Below, in pieces: positions 18,577-44,586 of a stretch of DNA of 59,032 bases; position 1 is the first letter of the stretch; every line of letters begins with the position of its first letter. The notes under the pieces were generated by a model. The model saw nothing but the letters and a program-made list of their open reading frames with translations, was not told where the DNA came from and searched no databases. This stretch comes from a virus (lineage: Duplodnaviria > Caudoviricetes). A program made the position numbers and the translations under genes. The DNA is taken from positions 1 through 59,032 of the IMG/VR virus record IMGVR_UViG_3300025084_000024; one strand, 5' to 3'.

Positions 18577-18923
18577 AATATTTTAAGAATAAAGAAGACT
18601 TTAGAGGGAACATGGACAAAATGGATCCTAAACTATTAACCATGCTTGATGAGCTTCGCGAAGAATATGGTCAACCTATTATTCTTAATTCCTCATATAG
18701 ACCCGCTTCTCACCCTATAGAAGTTGTAAAAAGCAAACCAGGAGAGCACACATATGGTGCCGCGGTAGATATTAAATGTATTGGCGGTGAAAATACATTT
18801 AATTTAGTAAGTGCAGCTATTAAAGTTGGATTTAGACGCATAGGTATATCGCGTAAAAGTAATTTTGTACACGTTGGAATTGGTTATCCTAGTGCGCCTA
18901 AAACAACTATTTGGACATATTAA
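18573..18923 (+). CDS. Peptidase M15A-family endolysin
   Basis: 'SSYR', 'HTYGAAVDI' and 'FVHVG' Zn-binding motifs. Confidence 0.85.
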   Translation: MKYFKNKEDFRGNMDKMDPKLLTMLDELREEYGQPIILNSSYRPASHPIEVVKSKPGEHTYGAAVDIKCIGGENTFNLVSAAIKVGFRRIGISRKSNFVHVGIGYPSAPKTTIWTY

Positions 18924-20668
18924 CCATCACAACTTAAACATTCAGGATCCATAGCCGCTGCTGCTATATCACCTCTTAGTACTGATTCTGTTCTAGTATA
19001 ATATAAAGTTTTTATTCCGCGTTTCCAAGCTTCTATATGAACTTGATTCATCCATTTGGGCGTTGCTTCAGAAGGAAATGCTAAGTTTAAACTTACAGAT
19101 TGATCTATATAGTCTTGTCTTATACCAGCTTGTCTAATCAATTCTAATTGATTTATTTCTTTAAATGTTTTAAATACATTTTTTACAGATTCTCCTTCTC
19201 CTTCTTTAGTAAGTCTTCCTCCGTGATCGTAAACCCATCCATCAAATTGTTTAATTCCTTGAATGGATCCACCATCTTCCAAAATTTTGTCCCAAGTTTC
19301 TTTATTGTCGATTCCAATTTTTCTTAATACTTTTTTAAGTTCTTTATTTTTACGTATAAATGTTCCTTTAGCAGATTGTTCTGTAAATACATTTGCGGCC
19401 CAGGGTTCAATACCTGGTGATACATTTCCTGATAATTTACTATTAGAAACTGTAGGCGCTACCGCTCTTAAATGCGTATTACGAAATCCTGTCCCTACAC
19501 ACCATAAAGGTTCACCATAAGTTTCCGCTAATGCTCTTGAAGCTCTTTCAGTTTCAATTTTTATTTTTGAAAAAATTTCTCGCGTTTTGAATTGCGCTAA
19601 TAAACTTTCGAAAGCGATTCCGTTTTTTTGTAGTAGGCTGTGCCATCCAAGGACACCAAGCCCAAGTGCCCTTCCTTTTTCCGCACTGCGTACAGAGTTC
19701 TCGAATCCCTTCATATTCTTTGCCTTCTGGATAAATTCTTCTAGCACACCGTCCAGGAACCATGTTGCGTCGTATATCAGATTGGTATTCTTCCATTCAT
19801 CATATTTATCTAAATTAACCGATGATAAGCAGCAAACAAAACTATGACTTTCATCTGTATGTAACACTATTTCGCTACAAATATTAGTCATATGTACTTT
19901 TAAACTATTTTTTTTGTATGCTGTTGGGTTATTTTTGTTTGCATTTCCCTTAAAAAGAATATAAGGTTCTCCAGTAGCTTTGCGCTTTTGGAGGAGTTTG
20001 GACCATTTCCCCCGTGCATCCTTATCTCCCGCTTCAAGTCTTCGCATAAACTTGTCACCGACCACAGCACACTGGTGTAAGTTAAGGGATTGTCTATTGA
20101 CATCTCCTTTAGGTTCTCTAATTTCAATCCATTCATCAAAGTCGGAATGTTCAATATTGATATTAACTGAAGCAGCTCCTCGTCTGACAGATCCTTGATT
20201 AGTGGCAAGTATTGTTGAATCGTATATTTTGCAAAACGGCACCACTCCATCACTTGTTCCATTACCTGTTATTTTAGCTCCAGCGGGACGAATCATATTA
20301 ATTCCGATACCAACACCCCCGCCGTGTTTTGCTAGTAACATCATTTCTAAATTTTTAGTACCAATATCATGCACACTATCTGCAACATCTATTCCAAAAC
20401 AGCTAATTGGTAATCCTCTATCTGCACCTGTGTTAGATAATACTGGTGAAGCTAAACATAACCATCCTTTCCATATATAATCAAAAAACTTTTCGGCTAA
20501 TTCAGGTTTATATAATCTTTTAGCTACAGCATTGCTTACTCTCCAATATGCATCTTTAGGAGATTCTCCATTAACTAAATAACCTCCCGCAATAGTTTTT
20601 TTGTAAACATCAGTATCACCCCAGCTGGGATAATCTTCTCCTTTTACCCAATTATCATTCCAACCCAT
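18920..20668 (-). CDS. nrdA: Class I ribonucleotide reductase alpha subunit, no ATP cone
   Basis: 'ISCF', 'TNICSEI', 'CCLSS', 'APTVSNS', 'QSVSLN', 'TLYY' and C-terminal CxxC. Confidence 0.96.
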   Translation of the reverse strand: MGWNDNWVKGEDYPSWGDTDVYKKTIAGGYLVNGESPKDAYWRVSNAVAKRLYKPELAEKFFDYIWKGWLCLASPVLSNTGADRGLPISCFGIDVADSVHDIGTKNLEMMLLAKHGGGVGIGINMIRPAGAKITGNGTSDGVVPFCKIYDSTILATNQGSVRRGAASVNINIEHSDFDEWIEIREPKGDVNRQSLNLHQCAVVGDKFMRRLEAGDKDARGKWSKLLQKRKATGEPYILFKGNANKNNPTAYKKNSLKVHMTNICSEIVLHTDESHSFVCCLSSVNLDKYDEWKNTNLIYDATWFLDGVLEEFIQKAKNMKGFENSVRSAEKGRALGLGVLGWHSLLQKNGIAFESLLAQFKTREIFSKIKIETERASRALAETYGEPLWCVGTGFRNTHLRAVAPTVSNSKLSGNVSPGIEPWAANVFTEQSAKGTFIRKNKELKKVLRKIGIDNKETWDKILEDGGSIQGIKQFDGWVYDHGGRLTKEGEGESVKNVFKTFKEINQLELIRQAGIRQDYIDQSVSLNLAFPSEATPKWMNQVHIEAWKRGIKTLYYTRTESVLRGDIAAAAMDPECLSCDG

Positions 20669-21268: not shown

Positions 21269-21523
21269 TTAAAAATTGTATAAATAAATTAAATATCCTA
21301 ATGTTACATTTAAATTTACTACTACTAAATTCCATTGTTTTGCTACAAATACCTGCGGCAACGATAGTATACCTCCTGCTACATATGTAATAGCACCTAC
21401 TGCATCAGGCAATAAATAAGGTGAAATCATTATAAAGCCTGCACCCATATACCCTAACCTATTAGATAATCTTTCTAATGGGGTTAGCTTTCTTTCTTTT
21501 ACAAGATTTTTTAAATTTACCAT
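21269..21523 (-). CDS. Small membrane protein (about 3 TM segments)
   Basis: Hydrophobic helices and an 'LPQ' motif. Overlaps the nrdB stop. Confidence 0.6.
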   Translation of the reverse strand: MVNLKNLVKERKLTPLERLSNRLGYMGAGFIMISPYLLPDAVGAITYVAGGILSLPQVFVAKQWNLVVVNLNVTLGYLIYLYNF

Positions 21524-22485
21524 ATATCTTCAAAATCCTCCCCTTCGTTTGCTTTAGAATAATCAGTCGGGCGAACAGCAAAAAAATCAGTATGAGTATG
21601 CCCCCCGGTAAGATGATAGAACCAGTCAAGATTGCCTGCTGCTTTTTTATTAAATTCAAAGTTGAACCCACTGTTCCCGTATCCAAGTTCTTGTAATTTT
21701 TCATTAAGACGTTTTCTGATAAATTGTTTAAGATCATAGGCTTTGAGGTTTTCAATGTCCCCCAATTCAAACATTTTATCAATGTATCGTTCCTCTGCGT
21801 TGAGTATTGTTTTAGCCGCTTCAAATATTTGTTCTTTACATTCATTTATTAAATTTGGCTCTTCTTCACACATATGCCTAAACAATTGACAACCCATTTT
21901 ACTGTGAAGTGATTCGTCGCGTACAGACCACTTCATTTGTTGTCCAATACCTTTTAGTAAATTTCTTAATTGAAAAGAATATAATACAGCAAAAGCAGAA
22001 TATAAACTAACTCCTTCAGCAAAAGCAGAAAATATAGCCAAAGATTTTGCAATACCAATTTTTTCAGATCCTTTATAAGCAACAAGGTTGTCAAACCTTT
22101 CCATAGTTGCTTCATCTTGTAGAAAAGCTTCAAAGTTTTCAAGTCCTAATGTTTCATTTAAATAACTATAGGCTACTGCATGAATTGTTTCTTGATTACC
22201 AAACATCATAGCCATCTGTTGAATTTCATGCTTAGGAAACCACGCAACTACCTTTTGTGTCCAATAATCGGACACTGCACATTCAGTTTGCGCAAAACCT
22301 AACAATATATTACCTACTAAATTTTTTTCTTCTTTGGTTAGTTTTTCATTCCAATCCTTTACGTCACCAGACATAGGTATTTCTGTGTGTAACCAAAATG
22401 CCTGTGCTTGTTTTAACCATCCTTCAGTATAATATTCTGGATAATCAAAAGGTTTATATGCTACTCTTAAATCAAATAGTCCCAT
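21517..22485 (-). CDS. nrdB: Class I ribonucleotide reductase beta subunit
   Basis: Ferritin-like ligands 'FAQTE', 'ETIHAVAY', 'FAEGVSLYSAF' and 'RDESLH'. Confidence 0.96.
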   Translation of the reverse strand: MGLFDLRVAYKPFDYPEYYTEGWLKQAQAFWLHTEIPMSGDVKDWNEKLTKEEKNLVGNILLGFAQTECAVSDYWTQKVVAWFPKHEIQQMAMMFGNQETIHAVAYSYLNETLGLENFEAFLQDEATMERFDNLVAYKGSEKIGIAKSLAIFSAFAEGVSLYSAFAVLYSFQLRNLLKGIGQQMKWSVRDESLHSKMGCQLFRHMCEEEPNLINECKEQIFEAAKTILNAEERYIDKMFELGDIENLKAYDLKQFIRKRLNEKLQELGYGNSGFNFEFNKKAAGNLDWFYHLTGGHTHTDFFAVRPTDYSKANEGEDFEDIW

Positions 22486-22488
22486 TTA

Positions 22489-22650
22489 TTATTTATCTAT
22501 TATTAAACAAAAATCTATGAAAGGTAAATATACAACATGCTCATTATAATCTTTATTAATATAAGATCTTATTCCTAACAATATACCCGGATACAACCCA
22601 ATACTAAGTTCCCATCCTTTAGCGTCCTTGCCCTCTGTATTTTTTAACAT
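22489..22650 (-). CDS. Hypothetical protein (start uncertain)
   Basis: 'WELSIGLYPGILLGIRSY...HVVYLPFID'. The start is placed at the internal Met because the upstream part overlaps another gene. Confidence 0.5.
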   Translation of the reverse strand: MLKNTEGKDAKGWELSIGLYPGILLGIRSYINKDYNEHVVYLPFIDFCLIIDK

Positions 22651-22753
22651 AGTTTTTACTTTTTTTAAGTTGTGAAGTTTTGCTTTTTGCGTGCACATTA
22701 GGACGCTTTACTTTATTTTTTGTTTTGTAATTATTTAATATTATTTTTGCCAT
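22619..22753 (-). CDS. Very basic 44-aa protein ending YRGQGR, not in the ORF track
   Basis: MAKIILNNYKTKNKVKRPNVHAKSKTSQLKKSKNYVKKYRGQGR, a motif recurrent in marine phages. Confidence 0.75.
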   Translation of the reverse strand: MAKIILNNYKTKNKVKRPNVHAKSKTSQLKKSKNYVKKYRGQGR

Positions 22754-22919
22754 AACATTTTATATTGTGCATTTCATGTAATTCAACAAGCTCTTTATAC
22801 AAAAGTCTTCCTCTTGTTTCTATACTCCATTTAATAAATTTATCAATTTGTCTATCCGCATATTTAATGCGAGCTATTTTTTTGCCTTTTCTAGGATCAA
22901 TTCTACCGTTCTGTCGCAT
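22731..22919 (-). CDS. Hypothetical protein
   Basis: 62-aa ORF overlapping its neighbours. Confidence 0.45.
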   Translation of the reverse strand: MRQNGRIDPRKGKKIARIKYADRQIDKFIKWSIETRGRLLYKELVELHEMHNIKCYGKNNIK

Positions 22920-23335
22920 TCTTTTTGATTCTGTGGTTTGTATAGTGTATAATTTGGGAACTGATTCATCACAAGTTGTTTAAATAGCTTCCAGCGCATT
23001 GGAAATGATTCATTAGCCCTTCCTTTTGTTTCAATTATAAAAGTATCTCCTATAAAGTCGGGTGTATATTTAATAGGCAATATTCTTTTGCAGCCTCTAT
23101 TCTTATAATCACCTTTGCCATTTGATTGTCTTTCATATACTTCGTTTTCAAAATGAAAACCATTTAACAAAACAAAAGTTTCTCCTTCATACTTTGTCCG
23201 TATTTTAGCTTTTTTTAAAGCCATATACATATACCTTTCTAAGCCTGAAGCAAAATTAATACCATCATATGACACTTTTTTTGAAACAACCGGTCCACGT
23301 TTTCTTTTTTTATATGGTCGCCGTTTAATCATCAT
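22874..23335 (-). CDS. T7 endonuclease I-like PD-(D/E)XK nuclease / resolvase
   Basis: 'FASGLE', 'YTPDF' and 'IIETKG' motifs. Confidence 0.85.
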   Translation of the reverse strand: MMIKRRPYKKRKRGPVVSKKVSYDGINFASGLERYMYMALKKAKIRTKYEGETFVLLNGFHFENEVYERQSNGKGDYKNRGCKRILPIKYTPDFIGDTFIIETKGRANESFPMRWKLFKQLVMNQFPNYTLYKPQNQKECDRTVELILEKAKK

Positions 23336-23585
23336 TAAATGTTTTATTTATGTTTTTTAGCATTACTTCCTGAAGCTCTTCTGTAGTATTTTCTTTAAGT
23401 TTTTGAAGATATAATACTGCATCCATTAATTCTTCTTGTAAATGATTCATCCAAATAAACATATTAGAAGGATCTTGGTCAAGAGTTATTTTATATTTTT
23501 CATAACCTACATCAGATCGCTCTACAAACTTATCTACTACACGTTCAACTACTGGATCCCTAAATTTAATTTTTTTCTTATTCAT
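23325..23585 (-). CDS. Small all-alpha NTP pyrophosphohydrolase-like protein
   Basis: 'GYEKY...WMNHLQEELMDAVLY' (EExxD helix). Confidence 0.6.
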   Translation of the reverse strand: MNKKKIKFRDPVVERVVDKFVERSDVGYEKYKITLDQDPSNMFIWMNHLQEELMDAVLYLQKLKENTTEELQEVMLKNINKTFNDD

Positions 23586-24354
23586 CTTTCACAAATGTTC
23601 CGTTAATCATTCTACCAGTTCTATTAGATATTTCATCATAAGCAGACTGAATGCAAGTTTCAATATCGGTACCGACAAGATGGGCAAGATTAGTAAGAAC
23701 AACAACGCTATCACCAATAGCATCAATAATATCTTCTTTATTATTTTTAAGTAAGGCTTGGGATAGTTCTCCAGATTCTTCATATAATTTAATTATTTGT
23801 GTTTTAGTATCACCCTTTTCATATAATCCTCTTTCTTCTGCCCAATTGCGTATATTATTAAATATATCTATTAATTCAACAGGTGGTATTAAATTGTTTT
23901 CAGGGTTTAAAAAAGCTTCATAATAAGCTTTGTTATAAATGTAACTGCGTTTTTCGTTGTACATAGATTTTTTGCAGTTAAGTAATATCCAATTAATTGT
24001 TTCAACATTAAGCTCAAAATCACCATGTGATGTTTCCCACGATAAGTCCATGTTATCCCTTAACCAATTGTTAAGTTGTAATTTAGGCACAGGAAATGTT
24101 GTAGTTTGTTCGGTAACGTTTATTTTCATTTTATTTAATTTTTGATTACATAAATTTTTATATTTTTGTCTGTCAACTTTATAGCCATAAGATTTTTGAA
24201 GTTCTATTTCCCGGTCAGATATATAATTTATATCATCACTAGAATCAAGAACTTCATATTCATCTAACTTATACCCTTGTACAGTCGTTACGCGTTTATT
24301 AAGATTACGTGTAACTCCTATTTTTTTACCCGGTATGTGATAAATAAAGTACAT
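23578..24354 (-). CDS. Fusion: GIY-YIG-like N-terminus, middle domain and MazG-like pyrophosphatase
   Basis: 'YFIYHI..KIGVT..LNKR..REIELQ' at the N-terminus. 'WAEERGL..KLYEESGEL..DAIGD' at the C-terminus. Confidence 0.75.
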   Translation of the reverse strand: MYFIYHIPGKKIGVTRNLNKRVTTVQGYKLDEYEVLDSSDDINYISDREIELQKSYGYKVDRQKYKNLCNQKLNKMKINVTEQTTTFPVPKLQLNNWLRDNMDLSWETSHGDFELNVETINWILLNCKKSMYNEKRSYIYNKAYYEAFLNPENNLIPPVELIDIFNNIRNWAEERGLYEKGDTKTQIIKLYEESGELSQALLKNNKEDIIDAIGDSVVVLTNLAHLVGTDIETCIQSAYDEISNRTGRMINGTFVKDE

Positions 24355-24357
24355 AGT

Positions 24358-25170
24358 TTATGTTGCTAATGGTGCTTTAATTAAAGTAGCAGGATTATAA
24401 TTAATTAAAGTTATATCCTCATGAGTTGGTATATCTACTTCATGTGTTAAAGATAGCCCTTTTTTTAATATTACTGTAGGTAATTTACCATCAGCCCTGT
24501 TTAAATATTTTAATGATTGTTCTAAATGATTATTATATAAGTGACAATCTCCCATAAAACAAATTAATTCGCCAGGTTTATATCCAAAACCTTTAGCTAA
24601 CATAAGTAGTAACAAACCATACATAGCTATATCATATGGTAAACCTAAAAAAACATCAACTGATCTTTGTGACCATGACAAGCTTAATTTACCATCATTT
24701 ATATAAACTTGAAAACCATAATGACAAGGAGGCAATGCCATATCATCCAATTCATGGGGATTCCATAAGCTTGCCATAATGCGCCGTGAGCTTGGTTCCT
24801 GTTTAATTTGCTTGAGAACTTGTTCAAGCTGATCAATACCATTAAAGTTACGAAGCTGCTTACCATAAACAGGACCAAGTGTATTATCGGTTCTTCCGGA
24901 TTTTTCATAATTCTCATTCCAGTAAGTAACACCGTGATGCTGCAAGTAATCCATGTCATTGCGACCTTGTAATATCCATAGTAATTCCGTAATTGCATGA
25001 TTAAAATATATTTTTTTAGCGGTTAATAATGGAAATCCGAGTTCCATATTATGTCTAAGAACTCTTCCGAAGACAGATCTCGTCCCAGTGCCAGTTCTAT
25101 CTTTCTTTTCCTTTCCTCCATTGAGTATTCCTGATAATAATCCTCTGTATTCATCTTGTACGTTTATCAT
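24358..25170 (-). CDS. thyA: Thymidylate synthase-family enzyme with Asn177->Asp (possible dCMP methyltransferase)
   Basis: 'DRTGTGT', 'FPLLT', 'SRR', 'LPPCH', 'QRSVDVFLGLPYD' and 'GDCHLYNNH'. Confidence 0.93.
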   Translation of the reverse strand: MINVQDEYRGLLSGILNGGKEKKDRTGTGTRSVFGRVLRHNMELGFPLLTAKKIYFNHAITELLWILQGRNDMDYLQHHGVTYWNENYEKSGRTDNTLGPVYGKQLRNFNGIDQLEQVLKQIKQEPSSRRIMASLWNPHELDDMALPPCHYGFQVYINDGKLSLSWSQRSVDVFLGLPYDIAMYGLLLLMLAKGFGYKPGELICFMGDCHLYNNHLEQSLKYLNRADGKLPTVILKKGLSLTHEVDIPTHEDITLINYNPATLIKAPLAT

Positions 25171-25444
25171 AATAATATTTCATTGTTTTTTTTATTGCTG
25201 GCCATATATCTTTATCATTGTACGATAGAGGAGATATATGTGCCTTTTCATTTTTTTTATATGGTCCTAGTCTTATTTCTATAAACCAAGCTTCAGGAAA
25301 TAATCCTTTTGTAGTAGGTTTAGGAGATATACGATAATTATTATTAATGCAATAATTAAAATGTAATTGTTCTTCCTTTGTTAATGTTGTAGCATATTTT
25401 GATAAACCTTTATAAGATTTTTTTTTAACTAAACCGCTTCCCAT
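25151..25444 (-). CDS. Hypothetical protein
   Basis: 97-aa ORF overlapping both neighbours. Confidence 0.55.
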   Translation of the reverse strand: MGSGLVKKKSYKGLSKYATTLTKEEQLHFNYCINNNYRISPKPTTKGLFPEAWFIEIRLGPYKKNEKAHISPLSYNDKDIWPAIKKTMKYYYDKRTR

Positions 25445-27153
25445 GGCATTGCTTCATTTATAACTGTTTCAGGGTATATGGGTATAAAACAACCTGATTT
25501 ATATTCCCATTTAAAATGGGCTTCCGCACCATTTTCACCTAAGTTTTGAAATTTAACCTTAAGCACCTTGGCTTTAACAGTTTTATTATCATAATCGCGG
25601 TGAACCAATAAACCGTGATAAGACGCATCATACCATTCACCACCGCCTTTAATATTATACATAGTTGGTTCTTCAATTTTTCCATCATTATTTTTATACA
25701 TTTTTGTTGGGTGAGCTACAACTATAACTAAAACATCATATTTTTTTGCAAATGTTTCAATTTTAGTTAAATATTCCATTGTATATCTATTAACATCTTC
25801 TGTTTTGCAATTTACATCTCTAATTTTATTAAATGGGTCAATAACTAAGCATTTAATACCTTTTCTTTTAACAAGTTCAGCACCTTTCTTTAAAACTGAT
25901 TCTAAAGTATAGCGCTCCATGTCTATAAAAAAGAAATTGTCATTAACATGCCCAGCTATTGATTTCCATTTTGCTCCACCAATGTCGGACTTGTGTGGCA
26001 TATCTTGCCATACTTTTCGCATTAGCTTATGAGCGTGTAAAAAAGTAGGTGCATTTTCGGGTGATGCAAAGGCTGTTTTCCATTGATAATTTTGATTATA
26101 ACCTACAACCATTTGATCCACAAAATCAGACTTACCACTGCTTGGTATACCAGTAACAGTAATAAACTGACCAGTATAAGTACTGAAAATATCGTCGAAA
26201 TTGCTAAGCCCAATTTGGTAACCTTTTTTAAAACCATTTTCAACAAAATCTGTAATTTCACCTTCAATGTCTTTGAATGTTGTAACGTTTTCAAGCGGGA
26301 CCGCTTTCGCTTGTTGTACAAGTTTTGATAATCCTTTAGTTCCATGCTTTAATAAATATTCGTTTGCATCTTTGCAATCATTGAAGTCTATAATAAAACA
26401 AACCTCTGCACCAAGACGTCTAATTAATTCTTGTTGCAAGGCTTGTCCTGCTTCATCTTTATCAACTGCTAAAATTATCTTTTCTTTATTTTCAAGATAG
26501 TCTATACAGTTATCTAAGTAATCTAAGTTATTACTATTTAAAGTTGCCCCGTTAGGGACAGAGATAGTATTAAATACACCAGCTTCATGGAAAGATAATA
26601 CATCCATTTCGCCTTCCACAATAATACAACTAGTGTGATTAGCAACGCTATTGATATTATAAAATACTTTTTCGGCTCCTTTAAATAGTTTAAAGTTTTT
26701 TCTAGCATCTCTATATTTTATATTAATTAATTCATTACCTATAAAATAATTAAACTTAATTGTATTTTCAAGTTTATTAGTTTGTGGCATCCATTCTTGG
26801 CCTTCTGAAACTTTTAAAGCTTTAAGGGTTTTAACAGATATACCTCTTGAATCAAACCACTTTTCAACCTTAGTGCTTTCTATGGGTGCTACACTTTGCC
26901 CAACTGGTCGCGTGTATTCCTTTAAGCTATTACCTTTTCTTTGGTAAGTATGTAACTGAAAAGTAGTATCACAATTATGACAAGTACCTAAACCGGTTTG
27001 CCAATCATAAGAAGCACATTTTAATTTTTGCTTTTGTGACTTCCTATCAGATGAACACAGGGGACAAATCCCCTGCGCTTTTCCTTCTTCAAGATCATAT
27101 TGGTTAAAATCTTCAATTTTATAACCATTTATTTCCTGAGTATTAATTTGCAT
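25429..27153 (-). CDS. T7 gp4/Twinkle-like primase-helicase
   Basis: Zn finger (CPLC...CHNC), TOPRIM ('IVEGEMD', 'DKD', 'KDANE'), Walker A 'GIPSSGKS', 'VIDP', 'VAHP'. Confidence 0.95.
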   Translation of the reverse strand: MQINTQEINGYKIEDFNQYDLEEGKAQGICPLCSSDRKSQKQKLKCASYDWQTGLGTCHNCDTTFQLHTYQRKGNSLKEYTRPVGQSVAPIESTKVEKWFDSRGISVKTLKALKVSEGQEWMPQTNKLENTIKFNYFIGNELINIKYRDARKNFKLFKGAEKVFYNINSVANHTSCIIVEGEMDVLSFHEAGVFNTISVPNGATLNSNNLDYLDNCIDYLENKEKIILAVDKDEAGQALQQELIRRLGAEVCFIIDFNDCKDANEYLLKHGTKGLSKLVQQAKAVPLENVTTFKDIEGEITDFVENGFKKGYQIGLSNFDDIFSTYTGQFITVTGIPSSGKSDFVDQMVVGYNQNYQWKTAFASPENAPTFLHAHKLMRKVWQDMPHKSDIGGAKWKSIAGHVNDNFFFIDMERYTLESVLKKGAELVKRKGIKCLVIDPFNKIRDVNCKTEDVNRYTMEYLTKIETFAKKYDVLVIVVAHPTKMYKNNDGKIEEPTMYNIKGGGEWYDASYHGLLVHRDYDNKTVKAKVLKVKFQNLGENGAEAHFKWEYKSGCFIPIYPETVINEAMPWEAV

Positions 27154-28870: not shown

Positions 28871-29623
28871 TTACAGATAATCAAGCACTTGCGAACTATC
28901 TACGTTGTCAATTAGTTTTTGTATTGCTGCTTTTTTAATTTCGGATACTCTTACGTAAGAACTAGGTCCTTCAATACCTATAATCTTTGCGATGTCATTA
29001 GCAGAATGCTTATCGCAATCCAATCCGTAAGATAAGCGTAATACTTCATATTCTTTTGGATTTAAGTTCTTTTTTAGTATACTTTTTAAATATATATTAA
29101 GCATACCTAAATTATATGGTTCAGATCTGTCTGGCACTTGATCAAAATAACTTTCTTCGTTATCAATTTGTTCGTCTATACTTAAAAATATACTATTAAA
29201 AAATATTTCAACTATTTTTTTATCCTCAGGATTTTGGCGCATTTCGTTTAATCTATGTTCTGGTATACGTATATGTCCTCTAGTTATATCTATTGATCTG
29301 CGTATTGCACCTTTAATTCTTTTAGATAGAAAAGATTTAATTGTTTTTTCAGGATCTTCTGATTCAACTATCTTACTCATTTCTATTTTATCAACTGCAG
29401 CAACTAATCCTTTACTTCCTTCTTGTATAAGGTCAGTTATATCTAATATACCTGATGCTTGTTGTGATGTTGCAAATTTATGTGCCATGTTTTCTACTAA
29501 TGGTAAGAATCTTATGATTAGCTCATCTCTAGTGTAAAGATCATACGTTTGTTTATCTTCTGGCATACTGTTTTGTAAATCAGTTTTATACCGAATGTAG
29601 TTCTTTACATTATATTTTTTCAT
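28871..29623 (-). CDS. Phage sigma-70-family factor
   Basis: Region 2 'LIIRFLPLV..DLIQEGSKGL..RIKGAIRR..IRIP'. Region 4 'LNPKEYEVLRLSYGL..DIAKIIGI..RVSEIKKAAIQKL'. Confidence 0.92.
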   Translation of the reverse strand: MKKYNVKNYIRYKTDLQNSMPEDKQTYDLYTRDELIIRFLPLVENMAHKFATSQQASGILDITDLIQEGSKGLVAAVDKIEMSKIVESEDPEKTIKSFLSKRIKGAIRRSIDITRGHIRIPEHRLNEMRQNPEDKKIVEIFFNSIFLSIDEQIDNEESYFDQVPDRSEPYNLGMLNIYLKSILKKNLNPKEYEVLRLSYGLDCDKHSANDIAKIIGIEGPSSYVRVSEIKKAAIQKLIDNVDSSQVLDYL

Positions 29624-30716: not shown

Positions 30717-30918
30717 CAGTTGTTTCTATTAATTTATAGATATAATTTAACACCTTAAGTTCTGTCTGAGCACCTTCAATAAGGCTATTCATTTCTTCAC
30801 GTGTAATATTACCTTTAAACACACCGCTTTTAAGTTCACGACGTAAATCGTTTAAGTGTATATTGGCGTGTATTACTTTAGCATAGATTTTATTGTTTGC
30901 TCTTTCTTTAGTTGTCAT
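30709..30918 (-). CDS. Hypothetical protein
   Basis: Start set at MTTKERA, downstream of the early motif copy at 30944. Confidence 0.55.
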   Translation of the reverse strand: MTTKERANNKIYAKVIHANIHLNDLRRELKSGVFKGNITREEMNSLIEGAQTELKVLNYIYKLIETTDD

Positions 30919-31390
30919 GTTTAAATTGTTTATCATCAATTATATTATCAAGTTGACTACGTAAAACATCTGTAAATTTATGCCCCATTGATTCCATTTT
31001 AATTAAACAATTACGGGTAAAGGTATACATTTCTTTATTTTGTAATAATTTAATTCTATATTTATCACGGTAGAATCTATTAGGATCAATGCTTTTAACT
31101 TGCAATCGCATTTTATTATCCAACTGTTCTTTTAGTTTTAAATATTTATTGTGATAATTTTTTTCCCATAAAGGATTAATTACATTTTCAAATAATTTAA
31201 GACCGTGAATAACGGTTGCGTGATCTTTGCTTACTGTTCTTCCAATAGAAGTTAATGATTCTCCTGAATAATCTTGAGCTAATTTATAATAAATTGCTCT
31301 GGGATACACTACATCACGTCGGCGTGTAGTTTCTTGTATTCTTTTATTAAATGCGTTGTTTACTGCGTTTCTAATAGCTATCGAGTTCAT
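30908..31390 (-). CDS. DnaA C-terminal (domain IV) HTH-like protein
   Basis: 'RRRDVVYPRAIYYKLA..SLTSIGRTVSKDHATVIHGLK' matches the DnaA domain IV signature. Confidence 0.85.
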   Translation of the reverse strand: MNSIAIRNAVNNAFNKRIQETTRRRDVVYPRAIYYKLAQDYSGESLTSIGRTVSKDHATVIHGLKLFENVINPLWEKNYHNKYLKLKEQLDNKMRLQVKSIDPNRFYRDKYRIKLLQNKEMYTFTRNCLIKMESMGHKFTDVLRSQLDNIIDDKQFKHDN

Positions 31391-35967: not shown

Positions 35968-36204
35968 ATGCCCCAAAATTTAACCCCTGGTGCTCGTAAA
36001 AGAAAAGCAATACGGGACAAAGAATATGCTATGACGCCTAGAAGACGGCGTATGAAAGCAGAAAATCAACGCCTTCGGCGTAAAGCTATTAAAAGGGGCT
36101 TCAATCTGGCCGGTCTAGATTACGATCACGAAGATAAAAAATTTGAATCAATAAAAAGGAATAGAGGTAACGACGGAAACGGCACCAAAACAGAAACAGC
36201 ATAA
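35968..36204 (+). CDS. Basic protein with a degenerate HNH-like motif
   Basis: Arg-rich N-terminus followed by 'GLDYDHEDKKFESIKRNRG'. Confidence 0.55.
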   Translation: MPQNLTPGARKRKAIRDKEYAMTPRRRRMKAENQRLRRKAIKRGFNLAGLDYDHEDKKFESIKRNRGNDGNGTKTETA

Positions 36205-36214
36205 AAATTAGCAC

Positions 36215-37243
36215 ATGGCAATAATTTATTCATACCCTCAAGCAACACCAACTGCTTCAGACTTACTAATCGGTACACTACTATCGGATGATAGTGGAGA
36301 AAATCCAACAAAATCATTTACTATAGCGGATATTATTGGTTTGGTACCCGCAGCCGGAACAGGAGGGACAGTTACATCAATAGGCCTAACTAATACAGAT
36401 GGTTTTTTAACAATTCAAAACACTCCTATAACTACAGCTGGTAATATAGGGGTTAATCTTTTTACATCGGGAGGTACCCCCGGGGCTACTACATTCTATA
36501 GAGGAGATGGCCAATGGGCCGAGCCGACTGGAACAGGTACACAGGTAACTTACACTATACAATCACAAACTAACGGTCCTAACATTGACATAGAGCTTTT
36601 AGATGATCCATCAACAAACCCAACAACTGTAACTTTAATACCGGGGAATGATATAGCTTTAGTCAATGCATCAAATGAAATAACAATTGCATCTGAGGCT
36701 GTTTCAACGGTGGTTGGTGGTACTTTTATAAATGTTGATTCTACTAATACACTAAGCCCTATAGTAAATTTATCCGCAACCGGCACCCCTGATGCTACCA
36801 GCTTTTTAAGAGGAGACAATACCTGGGCTGTTCCTAGTGGCGGAGGCGGTGGAGGAAGCATGAGCTCCTGGGATTTATTAGCAGACACCGGAACCACTCA
36901 AAATATTACTGATGGTGAAGATGTAAAACTTATTGGTGGCTCTGGTATTAGCACAGCTGTAGCGGATAATGCAGGTGTTGCTGAAGTAACAATAAATTTA
37001 TCAGGCACAGCGGTAGGTAGCTTAACCACGGCAGCTACAACATATGACAATTCAGCGGATGCTTTAAATGTTTCCGCATCTGGTAATGACTATACCATTA
37101 ATGCTAAAAATGTTATTACCCCCGGAGTTAATCCAGTGGGAACTCCGACAATATCTCAAATAAGAAACATAGTTTCTCTTACATCCGCTCAATATACAGC
37201 AATCACAACAAAAGATCCAAACACACTTTATATAGTAGTATAA
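36215..37243 (+). CDS. Short tail/head fibre protein
   Basis: N-terminus paralogous to ORF 38667, FxRGDxxW repeats, C-terminal 'QYTAITTKDPNTLYIVV'. Confidence 0.75.
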   Translation: MAIIYSYPQATPTASDLLIGTLLSDDSGENPTKSFTIADIIGLVPAAGTGGTVTSIGLTNTDGFLTIQNTPITTAGNIGVNLFTSGGTPGATTFYRGDGQWAEPTGTGTQVTYTIQSQTNGPNIDIELLDDPSTNPTTVTLIPGNDIALVNASNEITIASEAVSTVVGGTFINVDSTNTLSPIVNLSATGTPDATSFLRGDNTWAVPSGGGGGGSMSSWDLLADTGTTQNITDGEDVKLIGGSGISTAVADNAGVAEVTINLSGTAVGSLTTAATTYDNSADALNVSASGNDYTINAKNVITPGVNPVGTPTISQIRNIVSLTSAQYTAITTKDPNTLYIVV

Positions 37244-37244
37244 T

Positions 37245-38639
37245 ATGGCCATATATTTAGGTACCCAAGCAATTTCAAACTTATATCTGGGAAACCAAGA
37301 AATATGTGAATCTTTTTTAGAATCTACACAAATTTATGATGGATGTGCATTTACACCTGTAGTAGTAACACTGCAAGTAAATAATAATATATCGGGTCCA
37401 TCTGCAGGATATACTATTGGTGGTGATCAAAATGGCGCACAGCAGTCAGGAGAAGGCGGGGTTGGCTCATATGCTTTTAATACTACAGTTTCGGTAAATA
37501 GTGGCTATCAATTTTCTTCAGGCCCTACTGTGAATAATGCGAGCGGAACTTTACCATTATCAGATCAGACCGTAACAACTACGTTATCAGGAACAGTAGC
37601 ATTAATTCCTACAAATAGAACAGTGACGTTAAATATAGTTGATAATGTTAATGACCCCGGTGTCAGTCATACTTTTTCAGGTGATCCGGACGGGGACACC
37701 GTAACAGGACTACCAGGATCTTCATACAGCTTTACTTCTACATTAAATATAGCGTCAGAGTGGGAGGGGTCTATAACGCCAAATACAACTCAAACCGTAA
37801 GTGGATCAATACCCAGCTCAAATACTACTGTTAATATGACATTTAATGGTACATTGACTCAAAAAACATATACAGTAAATCATTCTTACGATACCTCTGG
37901 TGTTACTGGCACCCAATATAGTGCGCCTTCATCATCGGTAACTGGGGCAAATTCTGATGTTGTTTCACAAACAGGAAGTTCTGTTACAGGGCGAGCAGGA
38001 GCAGCTTGGAATTTTGTAACATCTGGATTACAAGCAAATTCTACGTACGAATGGACTAGTGGTCCAACTCTATCTCCAACATCACCAAGAGCAGTAACTA
38101 TAACAGGAGGACAAACAACACCGTCTACTCTTACAACCTTTGTTACAGGAACCGTTTCACAAATTGTAAACCAAGTTACTTTAGGTGGTGTACCTAGACC
38201 TTGTGCAAATTATTCATGTATAATTCCAGGGTCAGGGAGTCAACAAAGTAATGTTTGGTATTATTCAGGAACTTTAAGTGTAGGCACTGTTCTTTGGTCA
38301 AATAATGATTTAACAGGAAGTAATCCTGCGGCTGGTTTTTACGGAAAACTTAGTGGAGGTACAGGAAGTGTACAATATGGTTCTAGTGCTGTTATAGCAT
38401 TACCTTCTTGTGTAAGTTCTCTTAATGCTGTAACTCTTAAGTTTGATAGCACACCGGCTTTCGCGTGCGCAGCAGCTACTGATGAAGCTGGCTATATGGA
38501 TGGCTTCGCATTAACAACTTCTAGCAATTTTTATACTGATAGTACAGGTTGTTCCTTTGGTTCAAACGGTTATTATTCAGATGGAACGTATGTCCGTGAA
38601 TTAAGTAATGGAGCATTTATATCTTTTGCATCTTGTTAA
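37245..38639 (+). CDS. Fibre-tip/adhesin with repeated beta-sandwich-like units
   Basis: S/T/G-rich, about three ~90-aa repeats, Cys-containing C-terminal domains, N-terminal 'MAIYLGT' module. Confidence 0.65.
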   Translation: MAIYLGTQAISNLYLGNQEICESFLESTQIYDGCAFTPVVVTLQVNNNISGPSAGYTIGGDQNGAQQSGEGGVGSYAFNTTVSVNSGYQFSSGPTVNNASGTLPLSDQTVTTTLSGTVALIPTNRTVTLNIVDNVNDPGVSHTFSGDPDGDTVTGLPGSSYSFTSTLNIASEWEGSITPNTTQTVSGSIPSSNTTVNMTFNGTLTQKTYTVNHSYDTSGVTGTQYSAPSSSVTGANSDVVSQTGSSVTGRAGAAWNFVTSGLQANSTYEWTSGPTLSPTSPRAVTITGGQTTPSTLTTFVTGTVSQIVNQVTLGGVPRPCANYSCIIPGSGSQQSNVWYYSGTLSVGTVLWSNNDLTGSNPAAGFYGKLSGGTGSVQYGSSAVIALPSCVSSLNAVTLKFDSTPAFACAAATDEAGYMDGFALTTSSNFYTDSTGCSFGSNGYYSDGTYVRELSNGAFISFASC

Positions 38640-38666
38640 AAATAAAAAAAATAAAAAACATATAAA

Positions 38667-41600
38667 ATGGCAATAATATATACTTACCCGGTAGTTGCAC
38701 CCGCACTATCAGATCTGGTTATAGGTACAGATTTAGGCGGTAAAAACCCAACTAAAAATTTTACAATACAAAGTATTGCAGATTTGGTTGGAGGGGTAAA
38801 GCAAATAGTTGCCGGAACAGATATATCAGTAGACCCAACAGATGGAACAGGCATTGTAACAGTAAATTCAACGCTTGATCCTGGGGTTACTTCTTTAATA
38901 GCTGGGGACAATATTAATTTATCACCTGCTGATGGGACAGGGGATGTTACTATTGGTGTAAGCAATGTTGTGTTATCTGTATCTACCGGTGATGCTGATA
39001 CAATATTAATAGGCGGCACAAACGTAAGTCCTACAGTTTCTGCTAATGTTACATCAACAATAGCTTCTGGAGGAGCTAATTTGGTAGCGGCAGGCACAAT
39101 ATATGATTTTGTAGATACAAATTATATTCCTTATGCGGAAACCTCAACTTCACAAATACAGTTTGTTGATAATAACTCTGCTTTAGGAACATCAGATACT
39201 GTGGTACCTACTCAATTAGCTGTTAAAACTTATGTAGATAATGCTGTTACAGGCCAGTTAATATATCAAGGTGGTTATAATGCCGCAACTAATACTCCAG
39301 ATCTTACAACTTCTCCTAATAGTATTTTACAAGGGTGGACATATACAGTTACGACTGCGGGAACATTTTTTACCGAAACGGTTGAGGTTGGCGATTTATT
39401 AATAGCCGAAAGTGATAATCCAACTTCGTTAAGCAATTGGACAACAGTACAAAATAATATTGGTATTGCGACCGATACGATACAAGGTATTGCTAATTTT
39501 CCAATTTCAGGTGGTTTATCAATAAACGCAGGAGCGGTTTCATTGCCTGATTCAGGTGTAACTGCAGGGTCTTATACACTTTCTGATATAACGGTAGATG
39601 CTAAAGGAAGGATAACTTCAGCGTCAAGTGGAACAGTAAATATAGGAGTATCTGACTTATCTTCTGCTTCAGGTACCTTTATAACAATTGCTAATTTATC
39701 TTCAGCAACAGGGGCTATTGATTTAGGTACTGTTGATTTATCAGCTACTGGAACCCCTAGCAGTACTACTTTTTTAAGAGGGGATAATACTTGGGCTACT
39801 GTTATTTCTGAAAATGACTATGTTGATGGCATACAATTTGATACAGGAACTGGTGTACTAACTTTAGAAAGAACTGGAGCTTTAGCGGATTTAACTCAAG
39901 ATTTAGATGGTAGATATGCATTAGCATCTGATGTACCATCCAATATAGTACAAACAGTTGACACAACTAGTGGTGCGTTCATAGATCTTACACCGGCATC
40001 ACCAACATCTGGTGCTGTAACGGTTACTGCGGCACTTTCTGCAACCGGCACTCCTAGTGCATCAACATTTTTAAGGGGGGATAATGCTTGGAGTACTGCA
40101 CTTACAAGTGTGGGCATAACAAGCACGCTTTCAACTATAGCAATAAGTAATTCCCCATTAACAGCTAATGGGAATATAAACATAGATTTATCAACATCAG
40201 GAGTTAGCCCTGGTTCTTACACAAATTCTAATATAACCGTAGATCAATATGGTAGGATAACGGTTGCTAATAGTGGGGCCGCAGGAGGGGTTTCTGATTT
40301 TACAAATTCTAATGGTACTTTTATTAGTTATACTACAGAAAATGCAGCGGCTACAGGAAGTGTTACTACGGGACAAGTAGATTTATCAGCCCTTGGCACT
40401 CCTTCTGCTACTACATTCTTAAGAGGAGACAATGCTTGGGCAGAACAATCTGATATTGTAGCGGGAGCATCGACTCTTGTGGAAATAGAGGTTAAAAATT
40501 TAGAGGGTGCAGCTTTAACTCAAGGAACCCCTGTATATTTACTAGGCACGGTTGGTGCTTCAATTATAGTTGAAGTAGGCAAGGCAGACGCAAGTAATGC
40601 TAATAAAATGCCTAGCGTTGGTATATTAAAGCAAGACTTAGCAATTAATGGACAGGGGTATGCAATTGTATCAGGTACTTTAAAAAATGTGTCTACCAGT
40701 CCTATAGATTCAGTAACACCATCTACAGGTGATACGCTATATGTTAAATCTGGAGGCGGATTAACAACTACAAAGCCAACTGGTTCAACAAACTTTATAC
40801 AAAATATTGGACAAATAGGTAGGGTTAACAGCGTTGGTGGATCTATTTTAGCATCTTGTATTATGAGATCTAATGATATACCTAATTTACCTACAGGTAA
40901 AATATGGGTAGGTAATAATAATACCACAGTTTCTGATGTAGTTTATTTAGATGAAACTAATTTAAGATTAGGGTTAAATACAATAACACCATCACAAAGT
41001 CTGCATGTAGATGGTAATACTAGAATAACAGGGGCAATATACGATTCGAATAATGTACCAGGAACCTCTGGAGAAATATTAAGTTCTACTGCAACCGGAA
41101 CAGCTTGGGTTTCTGCTGGGGGTAGTGGTACAGTAACATCAGTAGCAACAAGCTCCCCTATTACTGGGGGTGTTATTACATCTAGTGGAACTATAGGTAT
41201 TACACAATCTAGTACTGCTACCGATGGATACTTATCGTCTGCCGATTGGAATACATTTAATAATAAAACATCAAATGCTGGTACAGTCACATCGGTGGCT
41301 ATTACAGAAACAGGTACAGCATTAACTATAACAGGCTCACCAATAACAAGTAGTGGCGTAATTGACATAGCTGGAGCAGGAACATCCTCACAGGTTATAC
41401 TAGGCGATCTTACTTTAGGCACTTACACTACAGGAACAGTTACTAGTGTAGGCATATCCGCTGGATCTGGAATAGGTGTAACAGGAAGTCCTATAACAAC
41501 GAGTGGAATTATAACTGTAACTAATACAGATACAGGTTCATCTCAAAATATATTTAAAACAATAGCTGTTTCCGGTCAATCAGATATTGTAGCTGGCAGC

Positions 41601-43885: not shown

Positions 43886-43887
43886 TT

Positions 43888-44253: not shown

Positions 44254-44262
44254 TTATAAAAA

Positions 44263-44586
44263 ATGATTTACACTTGGAATAATAAAACAGTGGACACTTA
44301 TCCTGCATTAGAAGGAAACAATGATGTAATCTTTAAGGTACATTGGGGGCTGATAGGAATGGATGACAATGAAAATGTAGGTAGTGTTTACGGAACGCAA
44401 TTACTAGATACTTCTAATTTATCAGGCTTTATTTCTTTTGCAGATATAACAGAAGAGCAGATAAATGAATGGGTAGAAGCAGCAATGGGTGGGGAAGAAG
44501 TGCAAGCTAAAAAAAATGCTATTAACGCACAAATAGCAGAGAAAGCAAATCCATCAGTAATAACTAAACAGATTGGCGAAGAATAA
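44263..44586 (+). CDS. Fibre-associated/chaperone-like protein
   Basis: 'YTW..DVIFKVHW..FISFADITEEQINEWV'. Confidence 0.6.
   Translation: MIYTWNNKTVDTYPALEGNNDVIFKVHWGLIGMDDNENVGSVYGTQLLDTSNLSGFISFADITEEQINEWVEAAMGGEEVQAKKNAINAQIAEKANPSVITKQIGEE

What the first reader, a model, noticed from the sequence alone, without database searches (positions are those of the whole stretch)
23325..25170. Thymidylate synthase with Asn177->Asp next to two NTP pyrophosphatases: candidate 5-methylcytosine DNA pathway
Seen: the canonical ThyA motif QRSxDxxLGxPFNIA reads QRSVDVFLGLPYDIA (Asp codon at 24631-24633), while the catalytic PCH and other motifs are intact. Known: this Asn (E. coli N177 / L. casei N229) determines dUMP specificity. 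N->D mutants methylate dCMP, and T4 dCMP hydroxymethylase has Asp here. The two genes downstream are MazG-like/all-alpha pyrophosphatases that could convert dCTP to dCMP. Inference: the phage may make 5-methyl-dCMP and replace C with 5mC as an anti-restriction strategy. Caveats: I see no dNMP kinase or own polymerase, and the His after the catalytic Cys is retained.
Basis: partly seen in the sequence, partly recalled or inferred. Interest (0 to 1): 0.82.

Follow-up and report, generated by a model that had tools for sequence, protein, structure and literature searches.

The report
Phage ThyA-like dCMP methylase (Asp177)
An uncultured marine phage of Flavobacteria-type hosts carries a thymidylate synthase whose base-selecting residue is switched from Asn to Asp, so it most likely methylates dCMP to give 5-methylcytosine DNA, a trick already documented in other phages and viromes.

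Summary
The 270-aa ThyA-family gene (24358-25170, minus strand) reads QRSVDVFLGLPYDIA, with GAT (Asp) at 24631-24633 where E. coli ThyA has Asn177. All other catalytic residues are intact.

The Asp is not a private variant. It occurs in 119 of 120 nearest protein clusters, in 35 of 35 readable syntenic viral contigs and in 3 of 3 MAG-binned contigs. All 41 comparator synthases at 45% identity or less have Asn.

By published residue rules the predicted product is 5-methyl-dCMP: Asp177 means dCMP, Leu143 plus a C-terminal tail means methyl, and Asp169 rules out 5-hydroxy.

Only the first downstream gene is a MazG-type pyrophosphatase, fused to a GIY-YIG-clan domain. The 86-aa gene has no detectable pyrophosphatase kinship.

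The genome has no second synthase, deaminase, DHFR, dNMP kinase, DNA polymerase or C5 DNA methylase.

No direct evidence of modified DNA exists, and C-containing restriction sites such as GATATC are still avoided.

The principle is in print (MetaGPA 2021; 5 of 7 Asp177 homologs made 5mdC in vivo, 2024 preprint). This scan has already reported the same thing in related phages. I class it as a new member of a known kind.

The parts
24358..25170 (-). ThyA-family enzyme with Asp at the E. coli N177 position; predicted dCMP C5-methyltransferase (5-methyl-dCMP synthase)
   Evidence: PF00303 at 291.9 bits. 46% identical to E. coli ThyA and 28% to the Xp12 enzyme. Active-site signature is L143, C146, H147, D169, Y176, D177, with the C-terminal tail present.
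24631..24633 (-). Asp codon (GAT) at the pyrimidine-specificity position
   Evidence: Read directly from the sequence. Column N177 in alignment A1. 37 GAT and 2 GAC in 39 clade genes.
23578..24354 (-). 258-aa three-part protein. The N-terminal domain belongs to the GIY-YIG clan (T5orf172 type). The middle domain is conserved and of unknown function. The C-terminal domain is a MazG-type NTP pyrophosphohydrolase and candidate dCTPase. The start codon lies 4 nt after the synthase stop.
   Evidence: phrog_1992 at 1.9e-35 and phrog_715 at 2.3e-31. Profile hits to PDB 1vmg (2.9e-7) and 2yxh (0.0024). Foldseek best hits are MazG, S-2L MazG-like and DCTPP1 structures, with TM-score on target up to 0.80. 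Invariant EExGE, DAIGD and E232.
23581..23877 (-). MazG-type domain of the 258-aa protein (about residues 160-258)
   Evidence: Stretches matched. Helices 164-243 in the model.
24160..24354 (-). N-terminal domain (about residues 1-65) of the T5orf172/MUG113 type, which I recall as GIY-YIG clan families
   Evidence: PF10544 is above its 20-bit cut-off in 6 of 8 orthologous N-termini. The window copy scores 15.7 bits, below the cut-off. The model shows beta-beta-alpha-beta-alpha topology at pLDDT 86-93.
23325..23585 (-). 86-aa conserved protein of unknown function (two-helix hairpin, invariant QEELxDA..Y motif); not shown to be a pyrophosphatase
   Evidence: Present after the MazG gene in 36 related loci.
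25151..25444 (-). 97-aa conserved protein of unknown function, directly upstream of the synthase and overlapping it by 20 nt
   Evidence: No family hit. Syntenic in 33 of the 35 syntenic IMG/VR loci, L002-L034.
22874..23335 (-). DUF1064 / resolvase-like nuclease, the next gene of the same tightly packed block
   Evidence: PF06356 at 33.9 bits. phrog_190, Holliday junction resolvase.
21517..22485 (-). Ribonucleotide reductase small subunit (supplies deoxynucleotides, including dCDP)
   Evidence: PF00268 at 196.5 bits.
18920..20668 (-). Ribonucleotide reductase large subunit
   Evidence: phrog_84 at 1.2e-149.
25429..27153 (-). Primase-helicase, the only replication enzyme found; there is no phage DNA polymerase
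   Evidence: Toprim_2 and DnaB_C hits. PF00476 absent from the genome.

Best explanation
The gene encodes a natural 'N177D' thymidylate synthase, that is, a deoxycytidylate C5-methyltransferase.

Inferred mechanism:
- Cys146 attacks C6 of dCMP.
- Asp177 reads N3 and the 4-amino group of cytosine in place of uracil.
- The one-carbon unit of methylene-tetrahydrofolate is transferred to C5.
- Because Leu143, Trp80, Asp169 and the C-terminal lid are kept, the exocyclic methylene is reduced by hydride transfer rather than hydrated. The products are 5-methyl-dCMP and dihydrofolate.

Inferred pathway:
- The MazG-type domain encoded 4 nt downstream most likely converts dCTP to dCMP. This removes the competing normal nucleotide and feeds the methylase.
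- The phage ribonucleotide reductase raises the deoxynucleotide supply.
- The phage encodes no nucleotide kinase, DHFR or DNA polymerase. Host kinases would therefore phosphorylate 5-methyl-dCMP, host DHFR would recycle the folate, and the host replicase would incorporate 5-methyl-dCTP. The resulting phage DNA would have C largely replaced by 5mC and would resist many restriction enzymes.

Shown here: the sequence signature, its strict conservation in a large phage clade, the gene order, and the MazG fold.

Inferred only: substrate, product, the dCTPase role, use of host kinases, and the modified state of virion DNA.
For: 1. Asp at N177, with every other catalytic residue intact.
2. The Asp is fixed. 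It occurs in 119 of 120 nearest clusters, 35 of 35 readable syntenic viral loci and 3 of 3 MAG-binned contigs, and both Asp codons are used. All 41 comparators have Asn.
3. Six further positions are fixed differently from the Asn enzymes: F62I, N68D, I79Y, V→I at residue 157, F176Y and S180M. This indicates a distinct, selected function. Tyr176-Asp177 is shared with the Xp12 enzyme.
4. In a 108-tip tree the window's clade of 16 tips is all Asp, with support 1.0.
5. It is the only synthase gene in a 93%-complete genome.
6. Literature, passages read:
- Asn-to-Asp switches ThyA to dCMP, and position 177 is the top residue separating modified from unmodified virome contigs (PMC8670742).
- 5 of 7 metagenomic Asp177 homologs, and the Xp12 enzyme, produced 5mdC in vivo (bioRxiv 10.1101/2024.12.05.627091).
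- Leu143 correlates with methyl and Asp/Glu143 with hydroxymethyl; D169N marks 5-hydroxy-dCMP synthases (PMC13326640).
- The T4 hydroxymethylase signature is Asp/Glu three residues before the Cys, Ser-x-Tyr, and no C-terminal tail (PMC6400193). None of these is present here.
7. An all-alpha NTP pyrophosphohydrolase lies next to the synthase here. The same arrangement is seen in Xp12, where the neighbour matches PRA-PH at 55.7 bits, and in Pamexvirus. PRA-PH also co-occurs with the synthase in modified contigs.
8. The gene order primase-helicase / p97 / synthase / MazG protein / p86 / DUF1064 holds in 35 IMG/VR loci.
Against: - No experiment or read-level signal shows modified DNA for this phage or its clade.
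- C-containing palindromes are still avoided. In the window, GATATC occurs 1 time against 12.8 expected, GAATTC 2 against 13.4, and CATG 86 against 141.9.
- Pooled over 35 related, non-independent loci, GATATC occurs 13 times against 67.9 expected. That is not what a fully protective cytosine modification predicts. It could, however, reflect enzymes insensitive to 5mC or an older history.
- The phage lacks the helpers seen in Xp12-type 5mC phages: dCMP/dCTP deaminase, DHFR and its own polymerase. It also lacks any kinase.
- The published in vivo assays co-expressed the T4 dNMP kinase, so host kinases may not suffice.
- 2 of the 7 predicted enzymes in that preprint did not give 5mdC.
- MazG genes are common in marine phages without modified DNA (recalled), so the adjacency is not specific.
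- The validated Xp12 enzyme has Asn143 and Pro147 and no C-terminal tail. The Leu143 rule is therefore not universal.
Confidence: 0.62

Rival explanations
1. The enzyme makes 5-methyl-dCMP, but mainly as a route to thymidylate. A host (or undetected phage) deaminase converts 5-methyl-dCMP or 5-methyl-dCTP to dTMP or dTTP, and virion DNA carries little or no 5mC.
For: Deamination of methylated cytosine nucleotides to thymine nucleotides is documented for Xp12-type phages. The genome is AT-rich (30-39% G+C) and has no other thymidylate synthase. Persisting avoidance of C-containing restriction sites fits unmodified DNA.
Against: No deaminase domain is found in the genome (PF00383). In the published cases the deaminase is phage-encoded next to the synthase, and the DNA is still 5mC-substituted. 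A detour through dCMP has no obvious advantage over an ordinary ThyA.
Confidence: 0.13
2. It is still a working thymidylate synthase (dUMP to dTMP), or a dual dUMP/dCMP methylase. The Asp is tolerated in this sequence background, and the phage DNA is ordinary.
For: The protein is 46% identical to E. coli ThyA, with the complete catalytic set, His147 and the C-terminal lid. Annotation models call it thymidylate synthase: TIGR03284 at 269.7 bits against a cut-off of 108. Restriction-site avoidance persists. No kinase for 5-methyl-dCMP is encoded.
Against: All 41 Asn-type comparators keep Asn. The Asn-to-Asp change is the documented specificity switch. Strict fixation of Asp, together with six co-varying positions, across a clade that diverges to 56% identity argues for a selected new specificity.
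Confidence: 0.13
3. It is a dCMP hydroxymethylase (T4 gp42-like) or a 5-hydroxy-dCMP synthase. The DNA would then carry 5hmC, 5hoC or a derivative.
For: Asp177 is shared with these enzymes. Trp83 of E. coli ThyA is replaced here by Asn, and by Asp or Asn in the three clade relatives aligned. One paper links that position to solvent access.
Against: Leu143 is present, not Asp/Glu. The sequence reads GPVY, with no Ser-x-Tyr. A full C-terminal tail is present. Asp169 is present, not Asn. No glycosyl-, carbamoyl- or other transferase was found among the ORFs scanned.
Confidence: 0.07

Closest known systems
Deoxycytidylate C5-methyltransferase (ThyA homolog) of Xanthomonas phage Xp12 and Pamexvirus relatives (GenBank MT664984, 45326-46195)
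   Same: ThyA fold, catalytic Cys, and Tyr176-Asp177 at the specificity position. An all-alpha NTP pyrophosphohydrolase gene lies next to it. Xp12 DNA has 5mC replacing C, and the enzyme makes 5mdC in vivo.
   Different: Only 28% identical, and in a separate part of the tree. Xp12 has Asn143 and Pro147 and lacks the ThyA C-terminal tail, whereas the window enzyme keeps Leu143, His147 and the tail. Xp12 also encodes a dCMP deaminase, DHFR and DNA polymerase I in the same arm, and none of these is present here. The two pyrophosphatases show no BLASTP similarity.
Engineered E. coli ThyA N177D and L. casei TS N229D (dCMP methylases)
   Same: A canonical ThyA scaffold (46% identity to E. coli ThyA) with the single specificity residue changed to Asp and everything else retained. 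The mutants methylate dCMP, as cited.
   Different: The window enzyme is natural. It carries six further clade-fixed changes: F62I, N68D, I79Y, V→I at residue 157, F176Y and S180M. Its activity is untested.
Asp177 thymidylate synthase homologs of cytosine-modified virome contigs (MetaGPA, Yang et al. 2021; 5mC-selective deaminase preprint 2024)
   Same: Same predictive signature, same environmental-phage setting, and the same association with a PRA-PH/MazG-type gene.
   Different: Most of those were picked because a dCMP deaminase lies beside the synthase, which is absent here. I could not check whether this clade is among their sequences, because the supplements are closed.
T4 gp42 dCMP hydroxymethylase, with gp56 dCTPase
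   Same: Asp at the specificity position, and the logic of a dCTPase feeding a dCMP-modifying ThyA homolog.
   Different: The hydroxymethylase signature is not met: there is no Asp/Glu143, no Ser-x-Tyr, and the C-terminal tail is present. No dNMP kinase or glucosyltransferase is present.

Membership tests
Thymidylate synthase ThyA fold family (PF00303) | Full-length match to the family profile, with the catalytic Cys and the phosphate-binding arginines | tested here: met
   291.9 bits over profile positions 2-265 of 266. R21, R126, R127, C146, R166, S167, D169, H207 and Y209 are conserved.
Canonical dUMP-specific thymidylate synthase (EC 2.1.1.45) | Asn at E. coli position 177, which reads O4/N3 of uracil | tested here: not met
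   Asp (GAT, 24631-24633). All 41 comparator synthases have Asn.
Canonical dUMP-specific thymidylate synthase (EC 2.1.1.45) | Catalytic preference for dUMP; complements thyA | not testable with these tools
   Needs an enzyme assay or a complementation test.
Phage dCMP C5-methyltransferase (5-methyl-dCMP synthase, Xp12 type) | Asp at position 177 | tested here: met
   Tyr176-Asp177 is shared with the Xp12 enzyme.
Phage dCMP C5-methyltransferase (5-methyl-dCMP synthase, Xp12 type) | Methyl (not hydroxymethyl or hydroxy) product: no acidic residue at 143, and Asp169 kept | tested here: met
   Leu143 and Asp169 are present, judged by the rules. This is a sequence prediction only.
Phage dCMP C5-methyltransferase (5-methyl-dCMP synthase, Xp12 type) | Same evolutionary lineage as the Xp12/PaMx74 enzyme | tested here: not met
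   28% identity. Separate clades in the tree, with the window clade nested among Asn-type ThyAs.
Phage dCMP C5-methyltransferase (5-methyl-dCMP synthase, Xp12 type) | Virion DNA with 5mC replacing C | not testable with these tools
   All 20 runs that hold the stretch are kept as assembled contigs only. Indirect signals (palindrome avoidance) are ambiguous.
T4-type dCMP hydroxymethylase | Asp/Glu three residues before the catalytic Cys, Ser-x-Tyr, and no ThyA C-terminal tail (PMC6400193) | tested here: not met
   Leu143, GPVY, and the tail IKAPLAT is present.
5-hydroxy-dCMP synthase (RB69 gp48 type) | Asn at E. coli position 169 (PMC13326640) | tested here: not met
   Asp169 is invariant.
MazG / all-alpha NTP pyrophosphohydrolase (258-aa protein, C-terminal domain) | Four-helix fold with EExxE and ExxD-type metal-binding motifs | tested here: met
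   Invariant E192, E193, E196, D211, D215 and E232. PDB 1vmg at 2.9e-7. Foldseek hits to MazG and DCTPP1 structures. Pfam MazG scores 21.5 bits, just under its 22-bit cut-off.
MazG / all-alpha NTP pyrophosphohydrolase (258-aa protein, C-terminal domain) | dCTP-specific hydrolysis that spares 5-methyl-dCTP | not testable with these tools
   Needs substrate profiling.
MazG / all-alpha NTP pyrophosphohydrolase (86-aa protein) | Detectable homology or fold match to the family | tested here: not met
   No Pfam or NCBIfam hit. hhalign probability 0.14%. No PDB hit. The model is a two-helix hairpin only.

The most novel reading that the evidence does not exclude
A large, globally distributed lineage of uncultured marine flavobacterial podophages fully replaces C by 5mC with a minimal module. 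The module arose independently of Xp12 by an Asn177-to-Asp switch inside an otherwise canonical ThyA.

On this reading the phage needs no kinase, deaminase, DHFR or polymerase of its own, because host enzymes do the rest.

The neighbouring three-part protein would unite a GIY-YIG-type nuclease with the dCTPase. The nuclease would attack unmodified, cytosine-containing host DNA, by analogy with T4 endonuclease II (recalled). The conserved 86-aa and 97-aa proteins would be further, still unknown parts of the pathway.
Probability: 0.15. Interest if true: 0.6.

Novelty: new member of a known kind. Interest (0 to 1): 0.33.

Why it matters
Standard annotation names this gene 'thymidylate synthase'. 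That label hides a probable DNA-modification pathway in a phage group that is common in marine metagenomes. 20 listed runs from 13 studies hold at least half of the sampled words of the stretch. More than 120 protein clusters at 90% identity belong to the clade.

If the DNA is 5mC-substituted, several things would need to take it into account:
- host range and restriction escape of flavobacterial phages;
- methylation-aware virome sequencing;
- thymidine and cytosine budgets during algal-bloom infections.

The enzyme is also a natural counterpart of the classic N177D ThyA mutants. Its six co-evolved substitutions may show how specificity was optimised.

The principle itself is already published, and this scan has already found it in related phages. 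The gain here is therefore incremental.

Tried and rejected
- Nucleotide search of the phage collection with 22000-27000 found no match. The nearest deposited relatives by terminase are MW202828 (61%) and Flavobacterium phage elemoB (45%). Neither has any PF00303 gene, so no cultured relative can stand in.
- The 86-aa protein as a second pyrophosphatase: rejected as unsupported.
- Homology between the window's MazG protein and the Xp12 neighbour: none by BLASTP. The link is only at superfamily level.
- Search for a dNMP kinase, DHFR, deaminase, family A polymerase or C5 DNA methylase in the genome: all negative. The record is 93% complete, so a gene in the missing part cannot be excluded.
- Public runs: all holders are kept as assembled contigs, which cannot show base modification.
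- Palindrome statistics as a proxy for modification are ambiguous. The main text of PMC7653180 gives no EcoRI, EcoRV or NlaIII result for Xp12 DNA, and its supplementary tables are closed.
- Fold search with the whole 258-aa model returned only MazG-type hits. The N-terminal domain could not be searched alone. Its assignment rests on Pfam T5orf172/MUG113 hits in orthologs.
- Literature searches for this clade or for flavobacterial phages with modified cytosine found nothing specific. None of the 15 papers listed contains 'Cellulophaga phage'. This is not proof that nothing is in print.
Full report
WHAT IS THERE

The window is a whole IMG/VR virus record of 59,032 bp, estimated 93% complete.

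Its terminase, portal, GroEL/GroES and structural genes place it among podophages of Flavobacteriia. The terminase is 61% identical to the uncultured record MW202828 and 45% to Flavobacterium phage elemoB. Weaker matches go to Cellulophaga, Tenacibaculum and Maribacter phages.

On the minus strand from 27153 to 18920 lies a tightly packed block, with overlaps or gaps of a few bases. In order it encodes:
- a primase-helicase;
- a 97-aa protein of unknown function;
- the ThyA homolog (24358-25170);
- a 258-aa MazG-containing protein (23578-24354);
- an 86-aa protein of unknown function (23325-23585);
- a DUF1064 nuclease;
- small ORFs;
- the ribonucleotide reductase small and large subunits.

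THE OBSERVATION

The ThyA homolog matches PF00303 end to end at 291.9 bits. It is 46% identical to E. coli K-12 ThyA.

In that alignment the motif QRSVDVFLGLPYDIA places Asp at column N177. The codon is GAT, read as atc on the + strand at 24631-24633.

R21, E58, W80, Y94, R126, R127, C146, R166, S167, D169, H207 and Y209 are conserved. Leu143 and His147 are retained. The C-terminus IKAPLAT matches the E. coli tail IKAPVAI.

The Asp is fixed in the clade:
- 119 of 120 nearest 90%-identity clusters have it, at 64-99% identity. The exception has Tyr.
- 35 of 35 syntenic IMG/VR loci that reach the motif have it. One further gene is cut by its contig end.
- 3 of 3 short contigs binned into MAGs have it.
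- Among 39 clade genes, 37 use GAT and 2 use GAC.
- All 41 Asn-type comparators have Asn: 30 from cellular genomes and 11 from other viral contigs, all at 45% identity or less.

Six further positions are fixed differently from the comparators: F62I, N68D, I79Y, V→I at residue 157, F176Y and S180M.

WIDER DISTRIBUTION

Among the best 150 representatives of a library of 1.84 billion proteins, 17 carry Asp at this position, 130 carry Asn, 1 carries Ser, and 2 could not be parsed.

I built a FastTree of 108 sequences, leaving out the 45 representatives longer than 360 aa. In it:
- the window's clade plus two representatives forms an all-Asp group of 16 tips with support 1.0;
- this group is nested among Asn-type ThyAs;
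- it lies apart from the Xp12 enzyme;
- parsimony needs about 10 Asn/Asp changes over the tree.

The switch has therefore happened many times, and this clade is one independent case. The two nearest deposited relatives, MW202828 and elemoB, have no ThyA-family gene at all.

WHICH PRODUCT

Published rules, from passages I read:
- Asp177 selects dCMP (PMC8670742; PMC5175136; PMC13326640).
- A hydrophobic Leu143 goes with methyl, and Asp/Glu143 with hydroxymethyl.
- D169N marks 5-hydroxy-dCMP synthases.
- T4 hydroxymethylase also has Ser-x-Tyr and lacks the ThyA C-terminal lid that seals the site for hydride transfer (PMC6400193).

The window enzyme has Asp177, Leu143, Asp169, GPVY and the full tail. 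This predicts 5-methyl-dCMP plus dihydrofolate.

In the 2024 preprint, 5 of 7 metagenomic Asp177 homologs, and the Xp12 enzyme, gave 5mdC in E. coli when co-expressed with the T4 dNMP kinase.

The rule is imperfect. The validated Xp12 enzyme has Asn143 and Pro147 and no tail.

One unexplained difference remains. E. coli Trp83 is Asn here, and Asp or Asn in the three clade relatives aligned. One paper connects that position with solvent access.

THE NEIGHBOURS

The 258-aa protein has three parts.
- Its C-terminal domain is MazG-type. It matches phrog_1992 and phrog_715. E192, E193, E196, D211, D215 and E232 are invariant. It hits PDB 1vmg at 2.9e-7. Foldseek hits go to MazG, cyanophage S-2L MazG-like and mammalian dCTPase structures.
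- Its N-terminal 65 residues model as beta-beta-alpha-beta-alpha. They match Pfam T5orf172 above the cut-off in 6 of 8 orthologs, though not in the window copy (15.7 bits). I recall T5orf172 and MUG113 as GIY-YIG clan families.
- The middle domain is conserved but unassigned.

The 86-aa protein is conserved in 36 related loci. It has no detectable relation to pyrophosphatases.

In Xp12 the gene next to the synthase is also an all-alpha pyrophosphohydrolase (PRA-PH, 55.7 bits). It is not similar to the window protein by BLASTP.

WHAT IS MISSING

- There is no second ThyA gene.
- There is no PF00383 deaminase, no DHFR, no thymidylate-kinase family protein, no family A DNA polymerase and no C5 DNA methylase.
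- There is no Walker A motif outside the primase-helicase and a 2230-aa protein without family hits in the structural arm.
- The remaining ORFs scanned are structural, lysis, recombination, sigma factor and chaperonin genes.
- Xp12, by contrast, encodes a deaminase, DHFR and polymerase I beside its synthase.

If this phage makes 5mC DNA, it must use host kinases, host DHFR and the host replicase.

EVIDENCE THAT CUTS THE OTHER WAY

- Several C-containing palindromes are depleted against a maximal-order Markov expectation. In the window, GATATC occurs 1 time against 12.8 expected, GAATTC 2 against 13.4, and CATG 86 against 141.9.
- In 279 kb of 35 related loci, GATATC occurs 13 times against 67.9, GAATTC 34 against 58.6, and CATG 650 against 925. 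These loci are related to one another, so they are not independent counts.
- Continued avoidance suggests restriction pressure that a complete 5mC substitution would be expected to relieve for 5mC-sensitive enzymes.
- I could not find Xp12 data for these enzymes in the main text of PMC7653180. Its supplements are closed.
- No read-level data are available, since all 20 holder runs are stored as contigs.

COMPARISON AND NOVELTY

The enzyme works like the Xp12 dCMP methyltransferase and the engineered N177D/N229D ThyA mutants. It is not of the Xp12 lineage: identity is 28% and it falls in a separate clade.

The principle is in print. So are its use to screen viromes and IMG/VR, and the in vivo proof for several metagenomic enzymes.

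My searches found no paper on this flavobacterial-phage clade. The supplementary sequence lists that I could not open may include it.

This scan has reported the same reading on four look-alike windows of other genomes, and on at least 16 findings in all. I saw those notes after my own analysis, and they agree with it.

VERDICT

- Confidence is 0.62 for a dCMP methylase feeding 5mC DNA.
- It is a new member of a known kind, of modest interest.

Noticed in passing
window 23578-24354 (minus strand); orthologs in L002-L036: The MazG protein is a three-domain fusion. The N-terminal domain is T5orf172/MUG113-type (recalled as GIY-YIG clan), the middle domain is conserved and unassigned (invariant TTTF and YNK motifs), and the C-terminal domain is MazG. 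A nuclease-like domain fused to a putative dCTPase beside a dCMP methylase recalls the T4 pairing of endonuclease II with dCTPase (recalled). This is untested.
   Followed up: partly
window, whole; L002-L036: There is strong clade-wide avoidance of GATATC. It occurs 1 time against 12.8 expected in the window and 13 against 67.9 in related loci. GAATTC and CATG are avoided more weakly, while GATC is not avoided (O/E 1.07).
   Followed up: partly
window 23325-23585 and 25151-25444 (minus strand): Two small proteins of unknown function (86 aa and 97 aa) flank the synthase/MazG pair and stay syntenic across the clade. The 86-aa protein has an invariant R..G..KY...L..D......W..H.QEEL.DA..Y..K pattern and models as a helical hairpin.
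   Followed up: partly
window 45453-47006 and 50743-51348 (plus strand): The phage encodes GroEL-like (phrog_5725, 1.3e-132) and GroES-like (phrog_13932) chaperonins near the terminase gene.
   Followed up: no
window 36001-45000: This stretch has a higher G+C content (0.38-0.39, against 0.30-0.35 elsewhere). It covers two proteins ending in the Phage_tail_C tip domain (342 aa and 1419 aa) and a glycine-rich-domain protein. It may be an exchanged host-recognition module.
   Followed up: no
window 28871-29623 and 30908-31390 (minus strand): The replication arm holds a phage sigma-factor-like gene (phrog_351) and a small protein with a DnaA C-terminal helix-turn-helix domain (PF08299, 43.4 bits).
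   Followed up: no
L050, L051, L052 (genome contigs): Short contigs (7.8-11.8 kb) carrying this phage module are binned into MAGs labelled Acidimicrobiaceae and Rickettsiales. These are most likely phage contigs mis-binned into those MAGs, not evidence of those hosts.
   Followed up: no
L047 2258-3076: A distant viral ThyA homolog (37% identity) has Ser176-Asp177 (LGLPSDI) and PPCHL. It represents another independent Asp-type lineage.
   Followed up: no
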